Below, one piece after another: positions 12,885-60,890 of a stretch of DNA of 64,000 bases; within the stretch, counting starts at the first letter, position 1; each line of letters begins with the position of its first letter. The notes under the pieces are model-generated. The model ran no database searches, had not been told where the DNA came from, and saw only the letters and a list, made by a program, of their open reading frames with translations. The translations under genes were made by a program, and so were the position numbers. The stretch lies in contig FR893385.1 of NCBI GenBank assembly GCA_000433315.1, positions 29,667 through 93,666 of the forward strand, written 5' to 3'. Source of the stretch: Firmicutes bacterium CAG:345. Lineage in GTDB: Bacteria; Bacillota_I; Bacilli_A; RFN20; CAG-288.

Positions 12885-12961
12885 GGCGGTTGTGGTGAAG
12901 TGGCTAACACATCTGGCTGTGAACCAGACATTCGGGAGTTCGATCCTCCTCAACCGCCCCA
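12885..12961 (+). tRNA. tRNA-His (anticodon GTG) with encoded G-1
   Basis: Acceptor GCGGTTG/CAACCGC, extra 5' G pairing with discriminator C, anticodon loop CTGTGAA, T-loop GAGTTCGATCCTC, CCA encoded. Confidence 0.8.
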
Positions 12962-12977
12962 GTATAGAATTTATTGG

Positions 12978-13009
12978 TCCAGTGTTGAAATACTGGGCTT
13001 TTTTGATGC
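12978..13009 (+). terminator. terminator after the tRNA pair
   Basis: CCAGTgttgaaatACTGG followed by GCTTTTTT. Confidence 0.55.
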
Positions 13010-13739
13010 AGTAATTACAGTGTTTATATTTAAAATGCATAATTTTGCTTGGTAAGCGTCAAAAATAACCAGGATCGAAAAAAGGCTCGAATTTTGAATA
13101 ATTTTTTCAGGAGGAACGAACATGTTTAAAATTGATTTTGTAAAAAAATATTTTTCAAAAAGATATTTTTCAAAAATATAATGTAAGCAAATAAACACTA
13201 TGATGATGGATATGTAAATATAGAAATTTAGTTCAAAATGATTGGAAGATTACTGAAGGTTTTTTTCAAGAAAGAGAATTTAAAAGTTATATAGATAAGT
13301 TATTTGAAATATTTAATAAAGTTAATCCACAAAATAAATCAAGACTAGAAGAAGCAATAAAATATATAACAACAAGAAAATATATTTTTTTAAATATTAA
13401 ACGATGGTCACTTAGAATTAAGCAATAATACAACGAAAAGAGGTATAAAGACATTTGTAATAACAATAAAAAACTTTTTGTTTTCGAATACAGAAAATAG
13501 AACTGAATCATCAGCAATAATTTTTTCAATAATACAAACAGCAATAGCAAATGGAATAGATTATAAAAAATATATAGAAAAAGTAATAAATAATATACAA
13601 CCAAATTCAACAAAAGAAGAATTAGAAAATCTTTTACCTTGGACAATTGAATTGAACTATATATGGATATCTTTGACGCTTACTCTTAACTTTATATGAT
13701 TTAAAAAATGTTGATAAAATTTTATACAACTTAACATAA

Positions 13740-13860
13740 ATAGAAATTTAGAAAAAATTCGACTTATTTTTGAGCAAAATATAGCCTCAATATAGATAAA
13801 AAGTGAGAAAAATGTTAAAATTTTTACAAGAATTAAAAATGTCGATGAGAATTTTATGAT
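13740..13860. repeat. partial third copy of the terminator/promoter repeat module (promoter part, extended -10 TGTTAAAAT)
   Basis: About 80% identical to 32117..32183 (atatagataaaaag...tgtta.aat...acaagatta.a.aaaatgt.gatgag). Confidence 0.5.
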
Positions 13861-14057
13861 TTTCAGCTAAATGAAAAATCTATAATTAGATTTTTTATCA
13901 GGACCAAAAACAACTATATTTTAAGAATATAAATTATATAGATTGATGAAAAAATGTCAAAATTTGAATATTTAGCGAAAAAATAAAGATCAATTGTTGA
14001 AAGATATTGAGAACAAAAAAACGAATTAAAAAGCGCAAAACATAGTGGAGGTAGGAA

Positions 14058-15236
14058 ATGGTAAACGCATTTTATTTTAATAAAAAAATTATTGAAGATT
14101 TTAGAAGTGCAGTAAATAAATCTCCTATTTTTGCTAGAAAAAATGAATATAAATTACTTTATAGCAAGGCGTGTGTTTTGATGAATAGAATTGATAGTGC
14201 TATTAGTTATTTTAATTCTCATAATGAAAAGCCTAAAAGTGAAGAGGAATTAATTTTGTATTTCGTTGAAGCTGCTATTTTAAAAGATGGTGTTTATCAA
14301 ATGTATGAAAATCTCTTTAGAGAGAAGCCACCTTTGATTGAAAGTAAAAAGTGGTTTATCGATGCGCAAACATATGGAAAAAAACTATTTGAAAAAGATG
14401 TATGTCCTTATGATGACACTTATTTTGAGTATTTAAGGGCATTAATATTTGCACATCCATTCGAAACATCTAAAGGGTGCCGCTCTAATAGAGTTTTTAT
14501 GTCAGAAGGTGAAATTCATATGTCGCCTTGGGTTATTGCTAACTATAATGATCCGAATAGAGAAGTTGTCGGATTAAGAATTTATTCAAACAAAACTTTA
14601 GATTCATTAGAAGATATATTCATTGGCTTTTCAAATTTAAAAAATTATTTATTGGAAAGATATAATTTGATTCCTAAATTAACTGATAAAATTAATGATA
14701 TTATTAACAGTGAGAAGAAAACTTGGCTTAGGCATAAGATTGTTCACTCAAATGATTTTTATTTAGATCTAATTGAAATTGAAAATGTTTACAAAGAAAG
14801 ATTCATACGCATCGAAATAGTAAGTGACTACAAAGATATTTATTCCATTAAGTGCGATTCAAAATTAAATATAGAATCCATAGATAAAGTAAGATTTATT
14901 TTGAACAACAAAATAATAAAAGCAATTGATTATTTGAACAATAATGAAAATGACAATGCTGAGGAAGAATTGTGCTTTATTTATAAAAGGCCTAAAAATA
15001 TGCATGAATTCGCTCATTACGAATTAGAAAAGATATTCACATATTTGCCAAATGAAAGAGCTAAAATTGAAATTGGTTCTAATGAAGAATGGGGGTTAAT
15101 TCAAGCAAAAAATTTTTATTCAAAATATGCATATAAATATGTTTTCATAGATTTTGAAAATTATAGTTATAATGAAATAAAAACACTTGTCACAGTCGCG
15201 TGTATATTGGGGTTTGTTGAAGAAACAAAAAAATAA
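14058..15236 (+). CDS. hypothetical protein with two Rx4-5H (HEPN-like) motifs; possible Abi-type defence protein
   Basis: 392 aa; LRALIFAHP and LRHKIVHSNDFY motifs; GGAGG RBS; lies in the AT-rich island after tRNA-His. Confidence 0.45.
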   Translation: MVNAFYFNKKIIEDFRSAVNKSPIFARKNEYKLLYSKACVLMNRIDSAISYFNSHNEKPKSEEELILYFVEAAILKDGVYQMYENLFREKPPLIESKKWFIDAQTYGKKLFEKDVCPYDDTYFEYLRALIFAHPFETSKGCRSNRVFMSEGEIHMSPWVIANYNDPNREVVGLRIYSNKTLDSLEDIFIGFSNLKNYLLERYNLIPKLTDKINDIINSEKKTWLRHKIVHSNDFYLDLIEIENVYKERFIRIEIVSDYKDIYSIKCDSKLNIESIDKVRFILNNKIIKAIDYLNNNENDNAEEELCFIYKRPKNMHEFAHYELEKIFTYLPNERAKIEIGSNEEWGLIQAKNFYSKYAYKYVFIDFENYSYNEIKTLVTVACILGFVEETKK

Positions 15237-15784
15237 TACGTTTAATAAAAAATCAGTTGTATAATTATCATAAGTAATAAAATTTGATAGTTACTAATCA
15301 TTGTGATTGTGTGTGAATTGGTTTAAAAGCTAATAAAAAATTCGAGAACTGCTCAATCACAGAATTATTAACAAACAAAACACAATGAATTAAACTCAAA
15401 ATATAACAAAAAACTATACTGAACAAAGCCTACAAGCAAAACAAATAAATAAAAAGTCATTCATTTCTGTAAAACTTGAAGCTCAAAAATGTTTAATTAA
15501 TTATCAATATGAGGAACTTTGAATGATTATGGTTGAAAAAGCAATCGTTCATAGAGATAAATCAATAACATTCAAATTTTATAATGGAAACGAAATAACA
15601 ATAGCTGCTCTTTAACAAGTGACATTTTTGCAATTTGATAAAAGCAATGATAGAATTAAATTATCAACTAATCATGGAGTTATTTTTATAAGACTCTACT
15701 TGAATAAATATCAACTCTCGGAAGAGTATGTAAAGGTTTTTAATCTACTTGTTTTATAATTATTGTGCAGGAGGAAAAACATAA

Positions 15785-17740
15785 ATGGAAACTATAGGAG
15801 ATAGAATAAAGAGTAAAAGAAAAGAGGCTGGAATGACACAACTAGAATTAGCTAGCAAATTAAATGTTACTGATAGAGCTGTGAGTAAATGGGAGCAGAA
15901 TGAAGGAAACCCTGATATTAGCATTCTTCCAAGAATTGCTGATTTATTTAATGTAACACTTGATTATCTTATGACTGGTATAGAACCTAAAAAAGAAGTA
16001 ATAATAATGTCAAAGATAGAACTTTGTGCCAAAAATGACGATCCTTCAATGATTAAATCATTACCATCAAATACAGATGAAAATGGGAAAACCCTTCTAG
16101 ACTATGTAAAGCAATATGATAGTAAAAAAGTTTTAAAAGCATTAATAGATAATTGCTCACATCAAACGCATTATATGTATTTATTTAATGCGCATCGAAG
16201 AACAGTGAAAGATGCAATTGAAATAATGCTTACATGTATTCCAGTTGACAGAGAACGTAAAGTAATAAAAGAAATATATGACAAAGAAATTAGAAATGCT
16301 GATGAAGATTTTATTAGAGCGTTAAATATGAATGATGATTATAGCAAAAAAATAGTTGATGGCTTTAAAAAAATCTTTAGGCTTTTAGTGAAACAATATA
16401 ATAGTTTATCCGAAGAGCAAAAAGATTATTATTTTGGAATGAAAGAAAATGAAGGTGAAGGACAAACTACATGTTGGTTTAATGCATATCCTTTTTTTGT
16501 AGAATATTCTATTATAGAAAAAAAGCAAAAATTACTTTCCATTTTACTTGAACAAATCGAAAAGCATAATGCTTGGGTTGATTCATCAATAGAAAAAATA
16601 AGAAAAGAACATTGCACACAAACTGATTTTATTTATTATCGTCAACATTTTCATGGCAAAAAAGTATATTGTTTACAATCAACACTAGATTATCTTCTTT
16701 CAAAAAAAGATTTCAAACTTGCGTATAGAATAAATTCATTTTTAGAAAAGCCATATGTGAGAAGAAAAATCGAATTGCTCGAAGTAGAAAATAATGCAAC
16801 TATCACAGAAAAAGATAAAACAGAATTTAGATGTGTCGATTGTCATATGATTGTTCCTGAAGAAATTGAAAAATTAAAAGATTTAAAATATGTCAAATCT
16901 ATTTTAGAGAATAATTATGCAAATTATTATGAAATGGTTTATAAGCTTTTAAAAAGCAACAAAAAAGAATTATATAAATTTTTTATTGATAATAATTTAC
17001 TTGATTTAGCAGATTTTTTAATGAATGGCAACGAAAAAAAACTATTACATGAAAGTTGGGAATATTTCAATTCTAGATGTAGTGATGAATTAACAATAAA
17101 ACAACCAGTAATTATAACAAGAGATAGTTATCTACCAACAACAGATAAAAAATATGTTTATTATCAAGATCTTAGAAATGTTTGCAGTGATATTGATAAT
17201 GAATCGAAAAAAATAGATAAAAATAAATTATTAGAGTATTTTGAATCATTTAAAAACAATGTTTTTGAAAAGACTAAAGCAATCGTTACTGCCGAAGAAA
17301 AAGATAAGCAGGACAAAATAGAGAGAGCAAAATTGGTAAAAGGACTAACACGTGAATATTTCGACGATCTTCTTTCAAATGATGATGAAGAAATATTCGT
17401 CATAAAGTTGTGTTCGCTATTTGATGCAATTTTACGTTTTGACTATAAATGTGACGCTGAAGACTTTTACGGAAGAATGAATCAATTTTTCGATAAAGGA
17501 CCTAAAAGTCAGTATTACGATAACGATGATTCCGGATATATGGTCTTAAATACTGACTATGAAAATGAATATGTTCAACCTTGGAATGATAATCGTGAAT
17601 TAATGAATAAACTCAGAATTAAAAGAAACACTATAGTTCATCCCGAAAATGATGAACGTGCTAATTTAAATAATGAAGAATTAAAACAATGTTTAGATTT
17701 TGTTTTTGCAGCTAATGGAGGAAATATATTCAATGGATAA
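15785..17740 (+). CDS. XRE-family HTH protein fused to a large C-terminal region with a HEPN-like motif
   Basis: 651 aa; N-terminal MTQLELASKLNVTDRAVSKWEQNEGNPDISILPRIADLFNVTLDYL is a Cro/CI-type HTH; C-terminal LRIKRNTIVHPEN resembles the HepT/HEPN RNxxxH motif. Confidence 0.6.
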   Translation: METIGDRIKSKRKEAGMTQLELASKLNVTDRAVSKWEQNEGNPDISILPRIADLFNVTLDYLMTGIEPKKEVIIMSKIELCAKNDDPSMIKSLPSNTDENGKTLLDYVKQYDSKKVLKALIDNCSHQTHYMYLFNAHRRTVKDAIEIMLTCIPVDRERKVIKEIYDKEIRNADEDFIRALNMNDDYSKKIVDGFKKIFRLLVKQYNSLSEEQKDYYFGMKENEGEGQTTCWFNAYPFFVEYSIIEKKQKLLSILLEQIEKHNAWVDSSIEKIRKEHCTQTDFIYYRQHFHGKKVYCLQSTLDYLLSKKDFKLAYRINSFLEKPYVRRKIELLEVENNATITEKDKTEFRCVDCHMIVPEEIEKLKDLKYVKSILENNYANYYEMVYKLLKSNKKELYKFFIDNNLLDLADFLMNGNEKKLLHESWEYFNSRCSDELTIKQPVIITRDSYLPTTDKKYVYYQDLRNVCSDIDNESKKIDKNKLLEYFESFKNNVFEKTKAIVTAEEKDKQDKIERAKLVKGLTREYFDDLLSNDDEEIFVIKLCSLFDAILRFDYKCDAEDFYGRMNQFFDKGPKSQYYDNDDSGYMVLNTDYENEYVQPWNDNRELMNKLRIKRNTIVHPENDERANLNNEELKQCLDFVFAANGGNIFNG

Positions 17741-18392
17741 GTATCAAATAAATTTTTTAAAAGGAATTATAGTCAGTGTAGATAATGCTGATGGATGTGG
17801 AAATTTTGAAATAGATAGTGAAGGTAATTTAATTATTGTACAAAATGAGAATTACAACATTACAAATTATGTTTTGAAGATCAAAAACAAAGATTTATCA
17901 TCAGTTTCTTATTATGTTAATGCATGGAAGAAAGCTAATATAGAAAATGATATTGCAAGCATTCCAGTTGACTTTAACAATCCAACAACAATTATAAAAA
18001 TCGAATTAAAAGATGGATTGGTTGATGATTTCAATGCGCAAATAATCTTAAAGAATGCTGATAAAGCGTCATGGGATGAAAAATACTCAAAAAAGGTCAA
18101 TGAAGAAAGGATAAAAAATATTGGCTGCATTTTATGCGATGAAAGCATGATTCACACGTTAATATTTAAGCCTTGCTGTAATAAATATAATTATTCTATC
18201 GTTAAATGGTATGCAAAAGGATACATGAAAAACCAACATTATAGTGAAATAAATAAACAATATTTTTTAGAAGAACAAAAAATAAATACAAAATTTTATT
18301 CAAACATTGAATGTGCATTTTACGTTGCTGCAGAAATATCTCAATTTGATAAATATGGTAATTTACTAGTTTCAACAAAAATAAACTTCTAG
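17734..18392 (+). CDS. hypothetical protein, 219 aa, translationally coupled to the upstream gene
   Basis: Start overlaps the upstream stop (ATGGATAA); Cys cluster GCILCDES...KPCCNKY; no recognisable domain. Confidence 0.5.
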
Positions 18393-18404
18393 AGGTTTGC
18401 GATA

Positions 18405-19370
18405 ATGTTAAAATATTTATTTTTTGATATTGAATGCTCTAATTGTTTTGGAAGAAATCCAAAGATGTGTGAGTTTGGATATGTACTAACTGATGAAAAT
18501 TTTAAGGTGATACGAAGCGATTCAATTCCTATGTCACCAGGTAGAAAAAATCATGAAAATAGATTTGATCTAACTATATACAAAAGAGACCCTGAATTTC
18601 AATGGGCATACGATATCGATTATTATTTTAAATGCCCTGAATTTCCTGAATACTATGAATTAATAAGTAGATTATTTAAAACAGAAAATGTTGTTATATT
18701 TGGATATTCTATTGATAATGATATTCGTTATTTAGACAACGCTTTTAAAAGATATAAATTAAATCCTATTGAATATGAAGTTTATGATATTCAAAGAATG
18801 ATGAAATATTATTCTGAGAAAAAAGAAAGATTTATGGGGCTAGAGGATGCGTTTAAAAAACTTTGTTCAATAAATGAATTTATAAAACTGCAAAAGCATT
18901 TGTCTAGAGACGATGCATTTATGGCAATGAGAGTTCTTCAAAAAATGTGTGAGAATCTTGAGGTAACTCCTTTAGAAATGATTGAATTGTGTGATAATTG
19001 TAAATATGATTCAAAAGAGTATTTAACAAAATACAACAAAAATCAATATTACAAAAAAGAAAAGGAAATTGGCCAGACTATGTGGGGAAATTTTTATAGA
19101 GAATGCACCCCAATGTTAGAAAATGATGAATCTATAGGAAAAATAATCACTATTAGTGGAAAAATCAAAGAAAATCCTATTGTGTTACAAGAATTAATAA
19201 AACTAATAAAAGATAATGGTTTTATTGGCTTCGATAAAATAAGTGGATCCGATTATTTAATATCTTTAAACAATGAAGATTCTATTAGAATTAAAAATGC
19301 ATTGAAGCATCCTTATCACGGAAAAATTATAACAATTCAAGAGTTTCAAAATTTAGAAGTTAAAATATAG
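18405..19370 (+). CDS. DEDDh-family 3'-5' exonuclease (DnaQ-like) with a ~140-aa C-terminal extension
   Basis: Exo I FFDIECSN, Exo II GYSIDNDIRYL, Exo III HLSRDDAFMA (Hx4DA). Confidence 0.65.
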   Translation: MLKYLFFDIECSNCFGRNPKMCEFGYVLTDENFKVIRSDSIPMSPGRKNHENRFDLTIYKRDPEFQWAYDIDYYFKCPEFPEYYELISRLFKTENVVIFGYSIDNDIRYLDNAFKRYKLNPIEYEVYDIQRMMKYYSEKKERFMGLEDAFKKLCSINEFIKLQKHLSRDDAFMAMRVLQKMCENLEVTPLEMIELCDNCKYDSKEYLTKYNKNQYYKKEKEIGQTMWGNFYRECTPMLENDESIGKIITISGKIKENPIVLQELIKLIKDNGFIGFDKISGSDYLISLNNEDSIRIKNALKHPYHGKIITIQEFQNLEVKI

Positions 19371-19430
19371 AGTATGCAAAATTTCATTGCTTAGAATATG
19401 CATTGAATCAATATTGATTATCAAACTAAT

Positions 19431-19670
19431 AATAGTAGAATAGGTCTGATACAATGCTATCAGGCTTTTTTGTTGCAAAAATATCAGAATTTACGTTTAA
19501 AACGCGATATTTTGCTTTAAAAATAGAATTTTATTAGTTTGACAGGCTGTTGGTAGGCTTCGTTTAGAGGTTCTATTAGTAGCTTTTTATTTTGCTTTTG
19601 CACGATTTAAACTCAAGGGTGCTAAAATTCTACACGATTTAACACAATTTGAAATTTGAGATAATATAGC
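19431..19670. repeat. ~240-bp repeat copy 1, starting with a rho-independent terminator hairpin (CTGATAcaatgcTATCAG plus T run)
   Basis: 85-90% identical to 31829..32075; contains the motif GGGTGCTAAAATTCTACACGATTT. Confidence 0.7.
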
Positions 19671-31735: not shown

Positions 31736-31825
31736 GGAGCAGTACCCAAGCGGTTGAAGGGACTGGTCTTGAAAACCAGCAGAGGTTAGTAGCCTGCCAG
31801 GGTTCGAATCCCTGCTGCTCCGCCA
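31736..31825 (+). tRNA. tRNA-Ser (anticodon TGA), type II long variable arm
   Basis: Acceptor GGAGCAG/CTGCTCC, anticodon loop CTTGAAA, long variable arm, T-loop GGTTCGAATCC, CCA encoded. Confidence 0.8.
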
Positions 31826-31828
31826 TGA

Positions 31829-32183
31829 TAGTAGAATAGGTCTGATACAATGCTATCAGGCTTTTTTGTTGCATAAATGGCAGATTTTATGCTTAAAATG
31901 CGATATTTTGCTTTAAAAATTGAATTTTATTAGGTTCACAGGTTGTTAGTATGCTTTATTTAGAGGCAGTATTAGCATCTTTTTATTTTGCTTTTACACG
32001 ATTTAACCTTAAGGGTGCTAAAATTCTACACGATTTGACTAGGGGTGCTAAAAATTTACAAGATTTAACACGATTTGAATTTTGAGACAATTTTGATAAA
32101 AATCCAAGCTCCATATAGATAAAAAGGCAAAAAATTGTTATAATTTCTACAAGATTATAGAAAAATGTGGATGAGGAGTATTT
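31829..32183. repeat. repeat copy 2 (terminator + ~240-bp repeat with internal 24-bp tandem motif + promoter module with extended -10 TGTTATAAT)
   Basis: 85-90% identical to 19431..19670; promoter part similar to 13793..13860; GGGTGCTAAAA(A)TT(C)TACA(C/A)GATTT repeated twice at 32013..32075. Confidence 0.7.
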
Positions 32184-32393
32184 ATGACTTATAAAGAGGC
32201 AGTCAAAAAATTAAGACTTAAAATGTTGATGACTCAAAAGGAGTTTACAACTATAAATAGGTGGGAAACAGGTAAATATGTTCCAACTATTAAAGTAAGA
32301 AGAAAATTACAACCATATTTTGAAAAGTATAATATTGAGGTGGATGCGTTATCCTCAATTCTTTGCTACAAGAGCATTTTTAAAACGTTTTGA
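32184..32393 (+). CDS. small XRE/Cro-like HTH protein (69 aa), 3' end runs into the hsdR fragment
   Basis: LKMLMTQKEFTTINRWETGKYVPTIKVRRKL HTH pattern; driven by the repeat-module promoter. Confidence 0.45.
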   Translation: MTYKEAVKKLRLKMLMTQKEFTTINRWETGKYVPTIKVRRKLQPYFEKYNIEVDALSSILCYKSIFKTF

Positions 32394-44208: not shown

Positions 44209-45767
44209 TCATTTTCATTAATTCTATACCATCTAAAAGCAGAAGATGATTTATATATATTGTTTTCTTTTACCAAAACATTGATGGCATATACTCCAGG
44301 TTCTGTCGGAGCAGTTGTGCCTAAATTAGTTTCACCATCATCTTTGGTATAATAAACTTCATAATCAGCACCATCAGAGACTTTTACTGTAATTTCATAT
44401 GGAGTACCATAAGTAAATATTGTTCCATTTTCTATCGATATTTCAATAACGGCTTCTTGCAATTCACTTGGACTATCAATTACATACCAAACAAAGACGT
44501 TTTTTGCTTTAAAAGTTGCATTTTCTTTTACTGCAACATTGATAGCATATGTTCCTGGAGCTGTTGGTTTGTTTTGTCCAAGATTAGTTTCACCATCATC
44601 TTTGGTGTAATAAACTTCATAATCAGCGCCATTTGATACTGCAACTTCGATTTGATAATCTTCACCATAAGTAAAATGAGTTCCACTAGCTACAGAAAAA
44701 GATATTTCTGCATCTTGCTTTTCAGTTTTAGCAACAATTTCAAACCATCTCCAAGTTTTTTTATTATCAAGAGGAGCAACAAATTCATCATTTTCAATGA
44801 TTCTAACATTCACTGCATATAAACCAGGTTCTGTTGGAGCAGTTGCACCCAAATCGATTTCTCCATCATCTTTAGTATAATAAACTTCATAATCAGCACC
44901 ACTTGATACTGTGACTTCAATATTATATGGTTCACCTTGAGTAAATTTTGTTCCATTTTCTATAGAGAATGAAATTTCTGCTTCTTTTTTAACTGAAGGT
45001 GCTTTGATATAGTACCAAACAAATGCAGTTGTTGAACTATAATAAGCATTTTCAAGTGTAGTAACATTGATAGCATATAATCCTGGTTCCGTCGGAGCTT
45101 TAGAACCTAAATTAGTTTCTCCATCATCTTTAGTATAAAAGATTTCATAATCAACTACCGCATTAACTGAAACAATAATAGTTTTTAAATCATTTGTTAA
45201 TAAAGTTGTTCCGTTTGTAAATGTCGTTCCATCATCAAGAGTAAATGTAATAGTTGGCTTTTCTTTTTCTATTGTACTTTTAATATTTATAGTATAGTAC
45301 GCTTGATATTTTTCTTCATATTTAATAATAACATCAGTCTGTCCTTCTTTATTCATGCTAGGAGCTATAACCATATCCAATGTTACTGGAACTTCTTTTT
45401 GGCTACCATCAGAATAATTGACTAAAATTGTTAAACCAGTTATATCAAGTTCTTCGCCAATATTATATTCTGTTTTATCTGGGTAATTTCCAATTTCAAT
45501 AGAAGTAATACTGATAACATCAGTGCCCGATGATGATGTTGTTGAGGAAGAAGAGGTTGCTGAACTAGTACTAGAAGATGAACTAGGTTTACTAGATGAA
45601 GAACTACTTGAATTAGAAGAAATAGATGAAGAAGATGAAATTACGGAAGAAGAGGTTGGTTGAATCGTAGAAGTAGAAGAAGAAGATGATGATGATGATG
45701 ATGTAGGTGAACAAGATGCTAAAAGTGTGGCGACTGTTGCAAGTAAGATAACATTAAGCTTTTTCAT
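44175..45767 (-). CDS. surface lipoprotein with Ser-rich linker and four tandem ~95-aa repeat domains (likely N-terminal part of a GH16 enzyme)
   Basis: Lipobox LLASC; poly-Ser linker; four repeats ADYEVYYTKDDGETNLG..APTEPG.YAINV. Confidence 0.7.
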   Translation of the reverse strand: MKKLNVILLATVATLLASCSPTSSSSSSSSSTSTIQPTSSSVISSSSSISSNSSSSSSSKPSSSSSTSSATSSSSTTSSSGTDVISITSIEIGNYPDKTEYNIGEELDITGLTILVNYSDGSQKEVPVTLDMVIAPSMNKEGQTDVIIKYEEKYQAYYTINIKSTIEKEKPTITFTLDDGTTFTNGTTLLTNDLKTIIVSVNAVVDYEIFYTKDDGETNLGSKAPTEPGLYAINVTTLENAYYSSTTAFVWYYIKAPSVKKEAEISFSIENGTKFTQGEPYNIEVTVSSGADYEVYYTKDDGEIDLGATAPTEPGLYAVNVRIIENDEFVAPLDNKKTWRWFEIVAKTEKQDAEISFSVASGTHFTYGEDYQIEVAVSNGADYEVYYTKDDGETNLGQNKPTAPGTYAINVAVKENATFKAKNVFVWYVIDSPSELQEAVIEISIENGTIFTYGTPYEITVKVSDGADYEVYYTKDDGETNLGTTAPTEPGVYAINVLVKENNIYKSSSAFRWYRINENEAQSLKKVLPQ

Positions 45768-57373: not shown

Positions 57374-57530
57374 ATCACATAATAGAAACTTATTATTGAA
57401 TTTTTTTCTTTTTTTTAGTATAAATAAACATAGAAAAAAGCAAAATTGTTGTAAAGCAATGACGCAAAACTATAGGGTCCATTTTGGACAGCCAGTTGCC
57501 AATATATTAGGAGAATAGAACTGGAATACT

Positions 57531-60559: not shown

Positions 60560-60801
60560 TTAAAGGTAGTGTTTTTTATTTTTTTCTAAAAAAGTTACCC
60601 TTAAAAAGCATTTATCACTATTGTCTATACGTTTTTAATTTTAAACATAATATTTATTATTTAAATACTATAATAAAAAATTTAAAAACACACTAATTAT
60701 TTATATCCTATCTTTAATAACAATAAAATATTACTAAAATAAATTTTAAAAAATTATAGAAAAAAACCGATAATTACTTATCGGTCTTATTCTTTTTTAG
60801 A

Positions 60802-60890
60802 TGGCGGAGCGACAGGGATTTGAACCCTGGCACATGTTACTGTCTACGAGCTTTCCAAGCCCGCCCCTTCAGCCTCTTGGGTATCGCTCC
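60802..60890 (-). tRNA. tRNA-Ser (anticodon GGA), type II
   Basis: Reverse complement folds with acceptor GGAGCGA/TCGCTCC, anticodon loop TTGGAAA, long variable arm, T-loop GGTTCAAATCC, CCA encoded. Confidence 0.75.

What the first reader, a model, noticed from the sequence alone, without database searches (positions are those of the whole stretch)
19431..19670. Repeated ~250-bp terminator/promoter module at tRNA-linked sites (copies at 19431, 31829, partial at 13740)
Two copies (85-90% identical) each start with a rho-independent terminator hairpin (CTGATAcaatgcTATCAG plus a T run). They contain the motif GGGTGCTAAAATTCTACACGATTT, which is tandemly duplicated in copy 2. Copy 2 directly follows tRNA-Ser and leads into a promoter with an extended -10 (TGTTATAAT) driving a small Cro-like HTH gene and an hsdR remnant. 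A third, partial promoter copy at 13793-13860 drives nothing. One reading is that copy 1 marks the ancestral sequence next to tRNA-His, with the defence island inserted between the tRNA and the repeat.
Basis: seen in the sequence. Interest (0 to 1): 0.55.

Follow-up and report, generated by a model that had tools for sequence, protein, structure and literature searches.

The report
tRNA-end landing pad for gene cassettes
The repeated 215-base unit is the DNA that directly follows tRNA genes in a group of wall-less gut bacteria; it combines transcription stop signals with what looks like the docking site where phage-like elements and small gene cassettes are spliced in, so it marks where these genomes gain and lose genes.

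Summary
Window 19429-19643 and 31825-32039 are 88% identical over 215 nt. A third, split and decayed copy follows tRNA-His (12962-~13060 and 13686-13862).

The unit belongs to a large family: 88 loci in species-representative genomes, almost all Acholeplasma-like Mollicutes. About 40 copies start exactly at the CCA end of tRNAs of at least eight identities.

Each module holds two terminator hairpins, then 1-3 units of about 32 bp (GGGTGCTAAA + TACACGATTT). Intact copies add a TGnTATAAT promoter and a small XRE gene.

Strains of the window's own species show an empty site, with tRNA-His CCA|module copy 1. Three different insertions occur at that same point: the window's island, a second island, and an element with three large serine recombinases (LSRs).

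Inserted elements end in a family-specific repeat array plus TTGTAT..N..CA. Together with the module's first 25 bp this forms a 52-bp dyad centred on the CA of CCA. LSRs are the only recombinases found nearby. A 2.9-kb contig without a recombinase closes on itself at this junction.

Best reading: an LSR-type attachment arm that accumulates by tandem accretion. The enzyme and the role of the repeat array are inferred, not shown.

The parts
12886..12961 (+). tRNA-His(gtg). Its terminal CA is the insertion point.
   Evidence: ARAGORN and Rfam. Empty-site strains L107/L120 read CCCCA|TAATAGTAGAATAGG.
12962..13060 (+). Left arm of island A: a diverged module start with its own terminator hairpin (12976-12999 plus T run).
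   Evidence: About 75% identical to tRNA-His-linked modules L062/L087. Alignment. Fold -12.8 kcal/mol, z -3.5.
13686..13862 (+). Decayed repeat array, promoter (TGTTAAAAT), RBS and ATG of a lost XRE gene. This is the rest of island A's left arm, separated from its start by unrelated DNA that includes an IS66 fragment (13478-13699).
   Evidence: 73% identical to L069 array+promoter. D5. Alignment. IS66_C hit.
14058..19370 (+). Cargo of island A: four genes of 392, 651 (HTH_3), 230 and 321 aa (weak DEDDh/RNase_T). No recombinase.
   Evidence: Pfam and PADLOC. Present in L109, L112, L118, L119, L123 and absent from L107/L120.
19370..19429 (+). Decayed right arm of island A: two degenerate GGGTATGCA repeats, then TTGAATCAATAT-N13-AA (the intact form is TTGTATCAATAT..CAGACCCA).
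   Evidence: Homologous to the intact right arms in L117, in 23 metagenome loci and in L148.
19430..19665 (+). Module copy 1, the displaced native trailer of tRNA-His. T1 hairpin 19442-19467, T2 hairpin 19544-19585, one repeat unit (CACGAT 19601-19606, GGGTGCTAAAA 19617-19627, TACACGATTT 19631-19640), then a tail.
31736..31825 (+). tRNA-Ser(tga). Module copy 2 begins at its CCA end.
31826..32077 (+). Module copy 2. T1 31838-31863, T2 31940-31981, two repeat units (31997-32077).
   Evidence: In a related strain (L134) a GGGTATGCA-type right arm abuts this module.
32116..32393 (+). Outward promoter TAGATA-17-(TG)TATAAT, RBS and a degenerate small XRE gene (69 aa, 8-aa deletion in the HTH, stop displaced into the hsdR fragment).
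   Evidence: Intact 63-77-aa homologues match PF01381.

Best explanation
What the repeat is. It is the tRNA-distal arm of a site-specific integration system used by phage-like elements and small gene cassettes of Acholeplasma-like Mollicutes.

What a module contains. A module starts exactly after the CCA of a tRNA gene. (1) Two intrinsic terminators stop tRNA read-through. (2) One to three units of about 32 bp follow (GGGTGCTAAA + TACACGATTT). (3) In intact copies there is then an outward TGnTATAAT promoter and a small XRE gene.

The proposed site. The first ~25 bp of the module (..AATAGGTYTGATACAA) form one half of a ~52-bp dyad-symmetric site. The other half is the end of the incoming element (TTGTATTAAA-N..-CA). 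The centre is the CA of CCA (or ACA).

The proposed reaction. I infer that large serine recombinases (LSRs) encoded by the autonomous members cut at this CA. They would integrate elements between the tRNA and its module, and would mobilise recombinase-less cassettes in trans.

Why copies accumulate. Every incoming element brings its own module as its left arm. Modules therefore pile up as direct repeats behind the tRNA (tandem accretion).

The window. Copy 1 is the original tRNA-His trailer, pushed 6.5 kb away by island A. The split copy at 12962-13862 is island A's own left arm. Copy 2 is the arm behind tRNA-Ser.

The repeat array. It is probably a binding array for an element-family-specific protein, either an accessory recombination factor or an operator-binding regulator.

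Shown: the insertion polymorphism at the CA, the architecture of the arms, the dyad, and the association with LSR genes. Inferred: the enzyme, the cleavage position, and the function of the array.
For: Family and position.
- 88 genome loci, nearly all labelled Acholeplasmataceae, Acholeplasmatales, Anaeroplasmataceae, Izemoplasmatales, Tenericutes or Mollicutes.
- About 40 of 107 arrays lie at a near-fixed distance behind a tRNA for Leu, Ser, His, Gln, Gly, Phe, Trp or Arg.
- The module always starts right after CCA, with AATAGGTYTGATACA at +10..+24.
- All arrays within one locus are in direct orientation, with up to 4 per 8 kb.

One site, four states in one species.
- Empty: L107, L120 plus 8 similar contigs.
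- Island A: the window, L109, L112, L118, L119, L123.
- Island B: L117.
- Element with three LSRs: L108.
- All junctions fall at CA|T.

Right arms.
- 46 distinct places end in [repeat array]-TTGTATTAAA-N9-CTTAGACA|T, usually followed by a module hairpin.
- Other families use other repeats with the same layout.

Dyad. Element positions -27..-16 match the reverse complement of module positions +14..+25 at a mean of 9.2 of 12, against about 3 at other offsets.

Recombinases.
- LSR genes lie near the arms in four repeat families: L108, L004, L005, L006, L002, L021, L057, L131, L143.
- No tyrosine-recombinase motif was found in 412 ORFs.

Mobility.
- The same GGGTATGCA-type right arm is joined to at least eight different module starts. 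These include both the copy 1 type and the copy 2 type.
- L146 closes on itself (55-nt terminal overlap) across a right arm-CA-left arm junction and has no recombinase.
- In L131 an LSR pair, the right arm, CA and the left arm with array, promoter and XRE gene are contiguous, as in an attP.
- L016 is a 2.2-kb recombinase-less cassette bounded by both kinds of arm.

Terminators. Hairpins are followed by T runs, and stems differ between subfamilies while staying paired.
Against: - No recombination was observed. The LSR assignment rests on co-occurrence in about 10 loci and on the shape of the site.
- Most cassettes carry no recombinase.
- The tRNA-side half of the site does not resemble the TTGTAT half.
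- LSRs are not known (from my own knowledge) to need accessory repeat arrays, so the arrays have no established role in this model.
- L146 could be a tandem duplication rather than a circle (coverage 3.3x).
- The search for tyrosine recombinases was only a regular expression plus partial Pfam annotation.
- The near-constant distance from tRNA to array could reflect common descent rather than a constraint.
Confidence: 0.7

Rival explanations
1. Homologous recombination only. The modules are portable stretches of homology. Islands are swapped between strains by double crossover in the tRNA and in the 215-bp module, with no dedicated recombinase.
For: Islands A and B carry no recombinase. Modules are 79-96% identical between loci and species, which is enough for RecA-dependent exchange.
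Against: - All independent insertions join at the same CA.
- Each element has its own, differently diverged left arm.
- Each has a conserved right arm that forms a dyad with the module.
- One right arm is joined to at least eight different module types.
- L146 and L131 show the right arm joined to the left arm.
Confidence: 0.1
2. Arm-type sites of a tyrosine integrase. The elements would be classical tRNA-integrating islands, and the 32-bp units would be arm-type or Xis binding sites.
For: Direct-repeat arrays on both sides of a crossover point, specific to each element family, resemble lambda-type attP arms (from my own knowledge).
Against: No box II/Tyr motif was found in 412 ORFs of at least 150 aa around the arrays. 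No Phage_integrase domain appears in any Pfam annotation obtained. No partial tRNA copy lies at the junctions. LSRs are the only recombinases seen.
Confidence: 0.1
3. Purely regulatory host module. It would be a terminator pair plus an operator array plus a promoter for the XRE gene and downstream genes. It would have spread by segmental duplication and would only coincide with an insertion hot spot.
For: An XRE gene with a TGTTATAAT promoter follows the array in 15 cases, and also in a family with a different repeat. The terminators are well supported.
Against: - Arrays keep their distance to the tRNA end (187-191 or 167-168 nt in 26 of 32) but not to the promoter (16-231 nt).
- The same repeats sit at element right ends directly against the junction, in arms where no promoter or XRE gene was noted.
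- No array was seen outside the two arm contexts. Some of that output was truncated.
Confidence: 0.07
4. Small RNA gene, or the end of a non-autonomous transposon (MITE or Tn7-like).
For: The minus strand of each unit reads TTAGCA-N17/18-TA(A/G)AAT. Right arms end in ..ACA, as DDE transposon ends do (from my own knowledge).
Against: - No Rfam match.
- The minus-strand fold is no better than shuffles, z 0.13.
- All arrays are in direct, never inverted, orientation.
- No transposase is linked.
- No target duplication is visible in the junctions read.
Confidence: 0.03

Closest known systems
Staphylococcal/enterococcal cassette chromosomes (SCCmec, ECC; PMC6222049 in the search list; details from my own knowledge)
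   Same: Large serine recombinases, often paired. Integration occurs at the very 3' end of a conserved gene. Tandem composite arrays form, and recombinase-less cassettes bounded by the same repeats are presumably moved in trans.
   Different: The target here is the CCA end of many different tRNA genes rather than one protein gene (rlmH). Each element carries a ~215-bp arm with two terminators and a 32-bp repeat array. The hosts are Mollicutes.
Tycheposons and other tRNA-targeting islands with tandem accretion (10.1101/2020.12.28.424599). Also ICE/CIME accretion in streptococci (PMC5704250) and Dehalococcoides ssrA islands (PMC3146451), which were seen only in the search list.
   Same: Cargo elements integrate at several tRNA genes, and newcomers push older ones further in. 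Degenerate remnants persist, and the cargo is defence or niche genes.
   Different: In tycheposons 910 of 937 elements have tyrosine recombinases, and the flanking repeats are partial tRNAs. Here the junction is after the last tRNA base, and the repeat is the post-tRNA module. Only serine recombinases were found.
Integrons
   Same: A fixed platform accumulates short, mostly recombinase-less, circularisable cassettes in one orientation, each bounded by a structured repeat.
   Different: No IntI-type tyrosine recombinase and no attC-like single imperfect palindrome were found. Cassettes bring their own terminators and promoter. There are many platforms per genome, one per tRNA.
Plasmavirus L2-like prophages of Acholeplasma (PMC12662186)
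   Same: Temperate elements of Acholeplasma integrated in tRNA genes.
   Different: No nucleotide similarity between the copy 1 region and any record of the phage collection. I did not verify that phage L2 is in that collection. The arm architecture described here is not mentioned in that profile.

Membership tests
Intrinsic (rho-independent) terminator | Stable G+C-containing hairpin directly followed by a T run on the transcribed strand | tested here: met
   T1 at 19442-19467, 31838-31863 and 12976-12999. T2 is an 18-bp stem plus CTTTTTATTTT.
Intrinsic (rho-independent) terminator | Pairing kept when the sequence changes | tested here: met
   Stems differ between subfamilies and remain complementary: CTGATAC/TATCAG, CCAGTG/TACTGG, CTTAATACC/GGTATTAGG. 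T2 shows CG to UA and GU/GC/AU changes.
Intrinsic (rho-independent) terminator | Transcripts end there in vivo | not testable with these tools
   Needs Term-seq or RNA-seq.
Large serine recombinase attachment site | Imperfect inverted repeat of about 40-55 bp around a central dinucleotide | tested here: met
   Positions -27..-16 against the reverse complement of +14..+25: 9.2 of 12 matches, about 3 at other offsets. The centre falls on the CA. The same holds by eye in the closed junction of L146.
Large serine recombinase attachment site | Identical central dinucleotide in all partner sites | tested here: met
   tRNA ..CCA and intact element ends ..(A/C/G)CA all have CA. The window's decayed arm has AA.
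Large serine recombinase attachment site | Recombinase gene next to attP in autonomous elements | tested here: inconclusive
   True for L108, L006, L004 (adjacent), L005, L021, L131 (within 2 kb) and L002 (4 kb). Most cassettes have none. LSR relatives L127/L128 lack such arms.
Large serine recombinase attachment site | Recombination catalysed by that enzyme at that site | not testable with these tools
   Needs an in vivo or in vitro assay.
Tyrosine-integrase tRNA islands / tycheposons | Tyrosine recombinase encoded by the element | tested here: not met
   No box II/Tyr motif in 412 ORFs (regular expression only). None in the Pfam tables.
Tyrosine-integrase tRNA islands / tycheposons | Element flanked by a full tRNA and a partial tRNA repeat | tested here: not met
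   Junctions lie after the last tRNA base, and no copy of the tRNA 3' end lies at the distal junction. T-arm-like fragments occur inside some left arms.
Integron | intI tyrosine recombinase with attI, and cassettes ending in attC | tested here: not met
   No tyrosine recombinase. The arms are 60-215 bp with direct-repeat arrays, not attC palindromes.
SCC-type cassette chromosome | ccr-type LSR genes, integration at the 3' end of rlmH | tested here: not met
   LSRs are present, but the target is tRNA CCA ends. It works like an SCC element but is not a member.
Tn7-like / DDE transposon ends or MITE | Inverted terminal repeats or inverted arrays of transposase sites, with target duplication | tested here: not met
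   All arrays in a locus are direct. No duplication is visible at the junctions read.
Described RNA family (Rfam 15) | Covariance-model match | tested here: not met
   Only tRNAs and one riboswitch elsewhere in the window.

The most novel reading that the evidence does not exclude
Acholeplasma-like Mollicutes may possess an integron-like cassette system built on serine recombinases. Any tRNA gene would serve as a platform. Self-contained cassettes (own terminators, repeat array, promoter, cargo, right arm) would be excised as small circles and re-inserted at the CA of the tRNA's CCA end by recombinases supplied in trans by resident phage-like elements. The family-specific repeat arrays would be accessory sites that match each cassette family to its recombinase.
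Probability: 0.35. Interest if true: 0.8.

Novelty: new variant of a known kind. Interest (0 to 1): 0.6.

Why it matters
If correct, this explains how small-genome, wall-less gut and environmental bacteria exchange defence and accessory genes: by a modular docking system behind their tRNA genes.

It would define a serine-recombinase site whose fixed point is the universal CCA end. It would also provide a simple sequence signature (module plus right arm) for delimiting islands and cassettes in metagenome-assembled genomes.

LSRs with short natural sites that are present many times per genome, and with possible accessory arrays, are also of interest as genome-engineering tools.

For the window itself, it settles the anatomy. 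12962-19429 is an inserted, now decayed island. Both full repeat copies are arms of this system.

Tried and rejected
- blastn of the copy 1 region against plasmid and phage collections: no match.
- Rfam at gathering and permissive thresholds: nothing relevant.
- nhmmer profile of 40 tRNA-linked modules against the window: only the two full copies. The decayed tRNA-His copy needed pairwise blastn.
- Searches for further module starts or right arms in the window: none convincing.
- Look-up of the 258-aa form of the PFL-activating enzyme gave one short contig. The 253-aa form worked.
- LSR relatives in IMG/VR at about 48% identity (L127, L128) have no such arms.
- An IMG/VR scan for the L108-type right arm returned only the two contigs already known.
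- L121 is a chimeric contig and was ignored.
- L007 was a chance match inside a coding region.
- Minus-strand promoter or small RNA: considered and set aside (fold z 0.13).
- Tn7-like ends: set aside because no inverted arrays exist.
- CRISPR-like array: set aside because the units are contiguous with no unique spacers.
- Replication-origin iterons: no replication genes were noted nearby, and this was not pursued.
- XRE protein as the general binder of the motif: an XRE gene follows only 15 arrays.
- Left end of the three-LSR element of L108: could not be reached with the allowed look-ups.

Full report
**1. Observation**

The two copies are real. Window 19429-19643 and 31825-32039 align without gaps at 88% over 215 nt. 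Each starts with AGGTCTGATAC-AATGC-TATCAGGCTT followed by T's, which is scored as terminator-like against 0.1-0.4 expected. Folding gives -12.6 kcal/mol.

The motif GGTGCTAAAAWTYTACAMGATTT occurs once in copy 1 and twice in copy 2, 3 matches against 0.01 expected.

Copy 2 begins at the last base of tRNA-Ser. It leads to TAGATA-17-TATAAT with an upstream TG, a 69-aa ORF and a 107-aa ResIII/SWI2_SNF2 fragment.

- tRNA-His is itself followed by a diverged module start (12962-~13060, own hairpin 12976-12999). The partial copy at 13686-13862 is the continuation of that same arm.
- The spacer holds a second 18-bp hairpin with a T run.
- The 69-aa protein has lost 8 residues of its helix-turn-helix.

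**2. A large family tied to tRNA ends**

Degenerate patterns found true relatives in IMG/VR. L001 and L003 are tRNA-Leu plus a module with 2-3 units. L002 lies inside a 51-kb contig.

One scan of species-representative genomes returned 88 loci. Nearly all are labelled Acholeplasmataceae, Acholeplasmatales, Anaeroplasmataceae, Izemoplasmatales, Tenericutes, Mollicutes or Bacilli MAGs, plus A. granularum ATCC 19168. A few short contigs in bins of other taxa are probably mis-binned; this is my inference.

About 40 of 107 arrays sit behind a tRNA (Leu, Ser, His, Gln, Gly, Phe, Trp, Arg), always in the tRNA's orientation. The module begins right after CCA, with AATAGGTYTGATACA at +10..+24.

The distance from CCA to the first GGTGCTA is 187-191 nt in 18 of 32 modules and 167-168 nt in 8 of 32. 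The distance from the array to the next TGnTAnAAT ranges from 16 to 231 nt.

Units repeat every 30-33 bp and hold two conserved boxes, GGGTGCTAAA and TACACGATTT.

Within the window's subfamily, 14 copies are 79-96% identical. They lie next to Ser, Leu, Arg, Gln, His or Gly tRNAs, or next to no tRNA. Copy 1 is closer to a tRNA-Leu-linked copy of another species (93%) than to copy 2 (88%).

Genes downstream are very diverse: small XRE proteins (15), Schlafen/AlbA_2-HATPase_c_4-wHTH proteins (10), groES (4), lipoproteins, methylases, T5orf172 and DUF3800.

**3. Strain comparison**

Proteins of the window are found on many human-gut metagenome contigs with the same gene order, so these are the same species. 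At tRNA-His there are four states.

- Empty: L107, L120 plus 8 similar contigs, reading ...CCGCCCCA|TAATAGTAGAATAGG = module copy 1, then the 207-aa gene.
- Island A, as in the window: L109, L112, L118, L119, L123.
- Island B: L117, about 8.5 kb, with sensor kinase-like, response regulator and EF-Tu-like genes and no recombinase.
- An element with three large serine recombinases (LSRs) and SHOCT proteins: L108.

All right junctions abut TAATAGTAGAATAGG, and all left junctions follow CCCCA.

The copy 2 site is occupied in a related strain (L134). A relative of island A's right part is joined to a copy 2-type module in L148.

**4. Anatomy of the inserted elements**

Left ends look like modules: a hairpin right after CCA, and sometimes an array, promoter and XRE gene.

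Right ends have a conserved layout. Two to four direct repeats, specific to the element family, are followed by TTGTAT..(27 nt in all)..CA and then T.

For the GGTGCTA family, 46 distinct places were found, mostly followed by a module hairpin. Other families use other repeats:
- GGGTATGCA in islands A and B, with 4 copies at 21-24-bp spacing at the right end only;
- GGGTACGAAA;
- GGGTGTTTCA;
- GTAAAACTCCGT;
- CAAACTTGGTTGTGACAA.

The window's island A keeps a decayed GGGTATGCA-type arm at 19370-19429.

The 12-mer at -27..-16 is the reverse complement of module positions +14..+25, at a mean of 9.2 of 12 against about 3 at other offsets. This defines a 52-bp dyad whose centre is the CA.

A metagenome scan with the GGGTATGCA-type arm gave 23 loci. 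In these the same arm is joined to at least eight different module starts.

L146 is a 2,984-nt contig with an exact 55-nt terminal overlap. It is therefore a 2,929-bp circle or a tandem copy. It joins right arm-CA-left arm and carries a wHTH gene, a Cys-rich peptide, a radical-SAM gene and a nitroreductase-like gene, but no recombinase.

In L131 and L143 several features are contiguous, as in an attP: an LSR pair, the right arm, CA, and a left arm with TTGAACGATTA x5, TGTTATAAT and a 63-aa XRE gene.

L016 is a 2.2-kb cassette between tRNA-Leu|left arm and right arm|module. L056 is a cargo-less unit.

**5. Which recombinase**

LSR genes (Resolvase + Recombinase + Zn_ribbon_recom) are the only recombinases seen. 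They lie next to or within a few kb of right arms in four repeat families.

A motif search found no tyrosine recombinase among 412 ORFs. This is a weak negative.

The dyad length, the single shared dinucleotide and the adjacency of recombinase genes fit LSR sites as I know them. The assignment is an inference.

The arrays have no precedent in LSR systems that I know of. Three features argue for a cis role in recombination or its control: they abut the dyad on the element side, they keep their distance on the module side, and they differ by family. An operator role for the XRE gene is the main alternative. Both could be true.

**6. Comparison and verdict**

The system works like SCC-type cassette chromosomes and like tRNA-island accretion systems such as tycheposons. 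It fails their defining features on three counts: the target gene, the recombinase class, and the partial-tRNA repeats.

It resembles integrons in outcome but not in parts.

I found no description of it in three literature searches. The only related statement is that L2-like plasmavirus prophages integrate into Acholeplasma tRNA genes.

I rate it a new variant of a known kind. The enzyme and the role of the array remain open.

Noticed in passing
window 57429-57503 (+): c-di-GMP-I riboswitch aptamer, 62 bits against a gathering score of 35.
   Followed up: no
window 44227-45153: Three tandem direct repeats of about 258-270 nt, 70-72% identical (D1/D2). Probably a repeated domain in a coding region.
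   Followed up: no
window 60740-60802 (-), downstream of tRNA-Ser(gga): This tRNA is followed by CCA|TCTAAAAAAGAATAAGACCGATAAGTAATTATCGGTTTTTTT. The hairpin resembles module T1 (10 of 15 to AATAGGTCTGATACA), but there is no repeat array. It may be a very old or naive trailer.
   Followed up: partly
window 13478-13699 (+): IS66-family C-terminal fragment inside the split left arm of island A.
   Followed up: no
L146 1-2984: Contig with an exact 55-nt terminal overlap, so a 2,929-bp circle or tandem. It carries a RiPP-like set (Cys-rich 67-aa peptide, interrupted radical-SAM/SPASM gene, nitroreductase-like gene, HxlR-like regulator) between a left and a right arm, with no recombinase. The protein names rest on my reading of the translations, not on a family search.
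   Followed up: partly
all arrays, e.g. window 19619-19640: Box 1 (GTGCTAAA) and box 2 (CACGATTT) are exact complements without reversal. I have no explanation. In the GGGTATGCA family the two box types are separated: GGGTATGCA sits on the right arm and TTGAACGATTA on the left arm.
   Followed up: no
L078 3300-3560; L073, L093, L095, L027, L023: GGTGCTA-type right arms are preceded by a conserved ~70-nt leader (GGACTGTATAGGGTAAATACAACAGTCATTTTCGACAG...GTTAAGCCATAATTTAGG). In L078 two such units follow each other.
   Followed up: no
L117 11060-11200; L146 100-150; L131 11720-11770: Left arms of the GGGTATGCA family contain T-arm-like fragments (GGGTTCAATTCCTACC, GGTTCGAACCCACGAAC). They may be relics of earlier tRNA junctions.
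   Followed up: no
L045, L060, L065, L095 (groES upstream): In four species the module lies about 410-470 nt upstream of groES-groEL, so a module can be followed directly by housekeeping genes.
   Followed up: partly
L121 10900-11100: Metagenome contig that switches to DNA of a higher-G+C organism inside tRNA-Pro. I read this as a chimeric assembly at a tRNA.
   Followed up: yes
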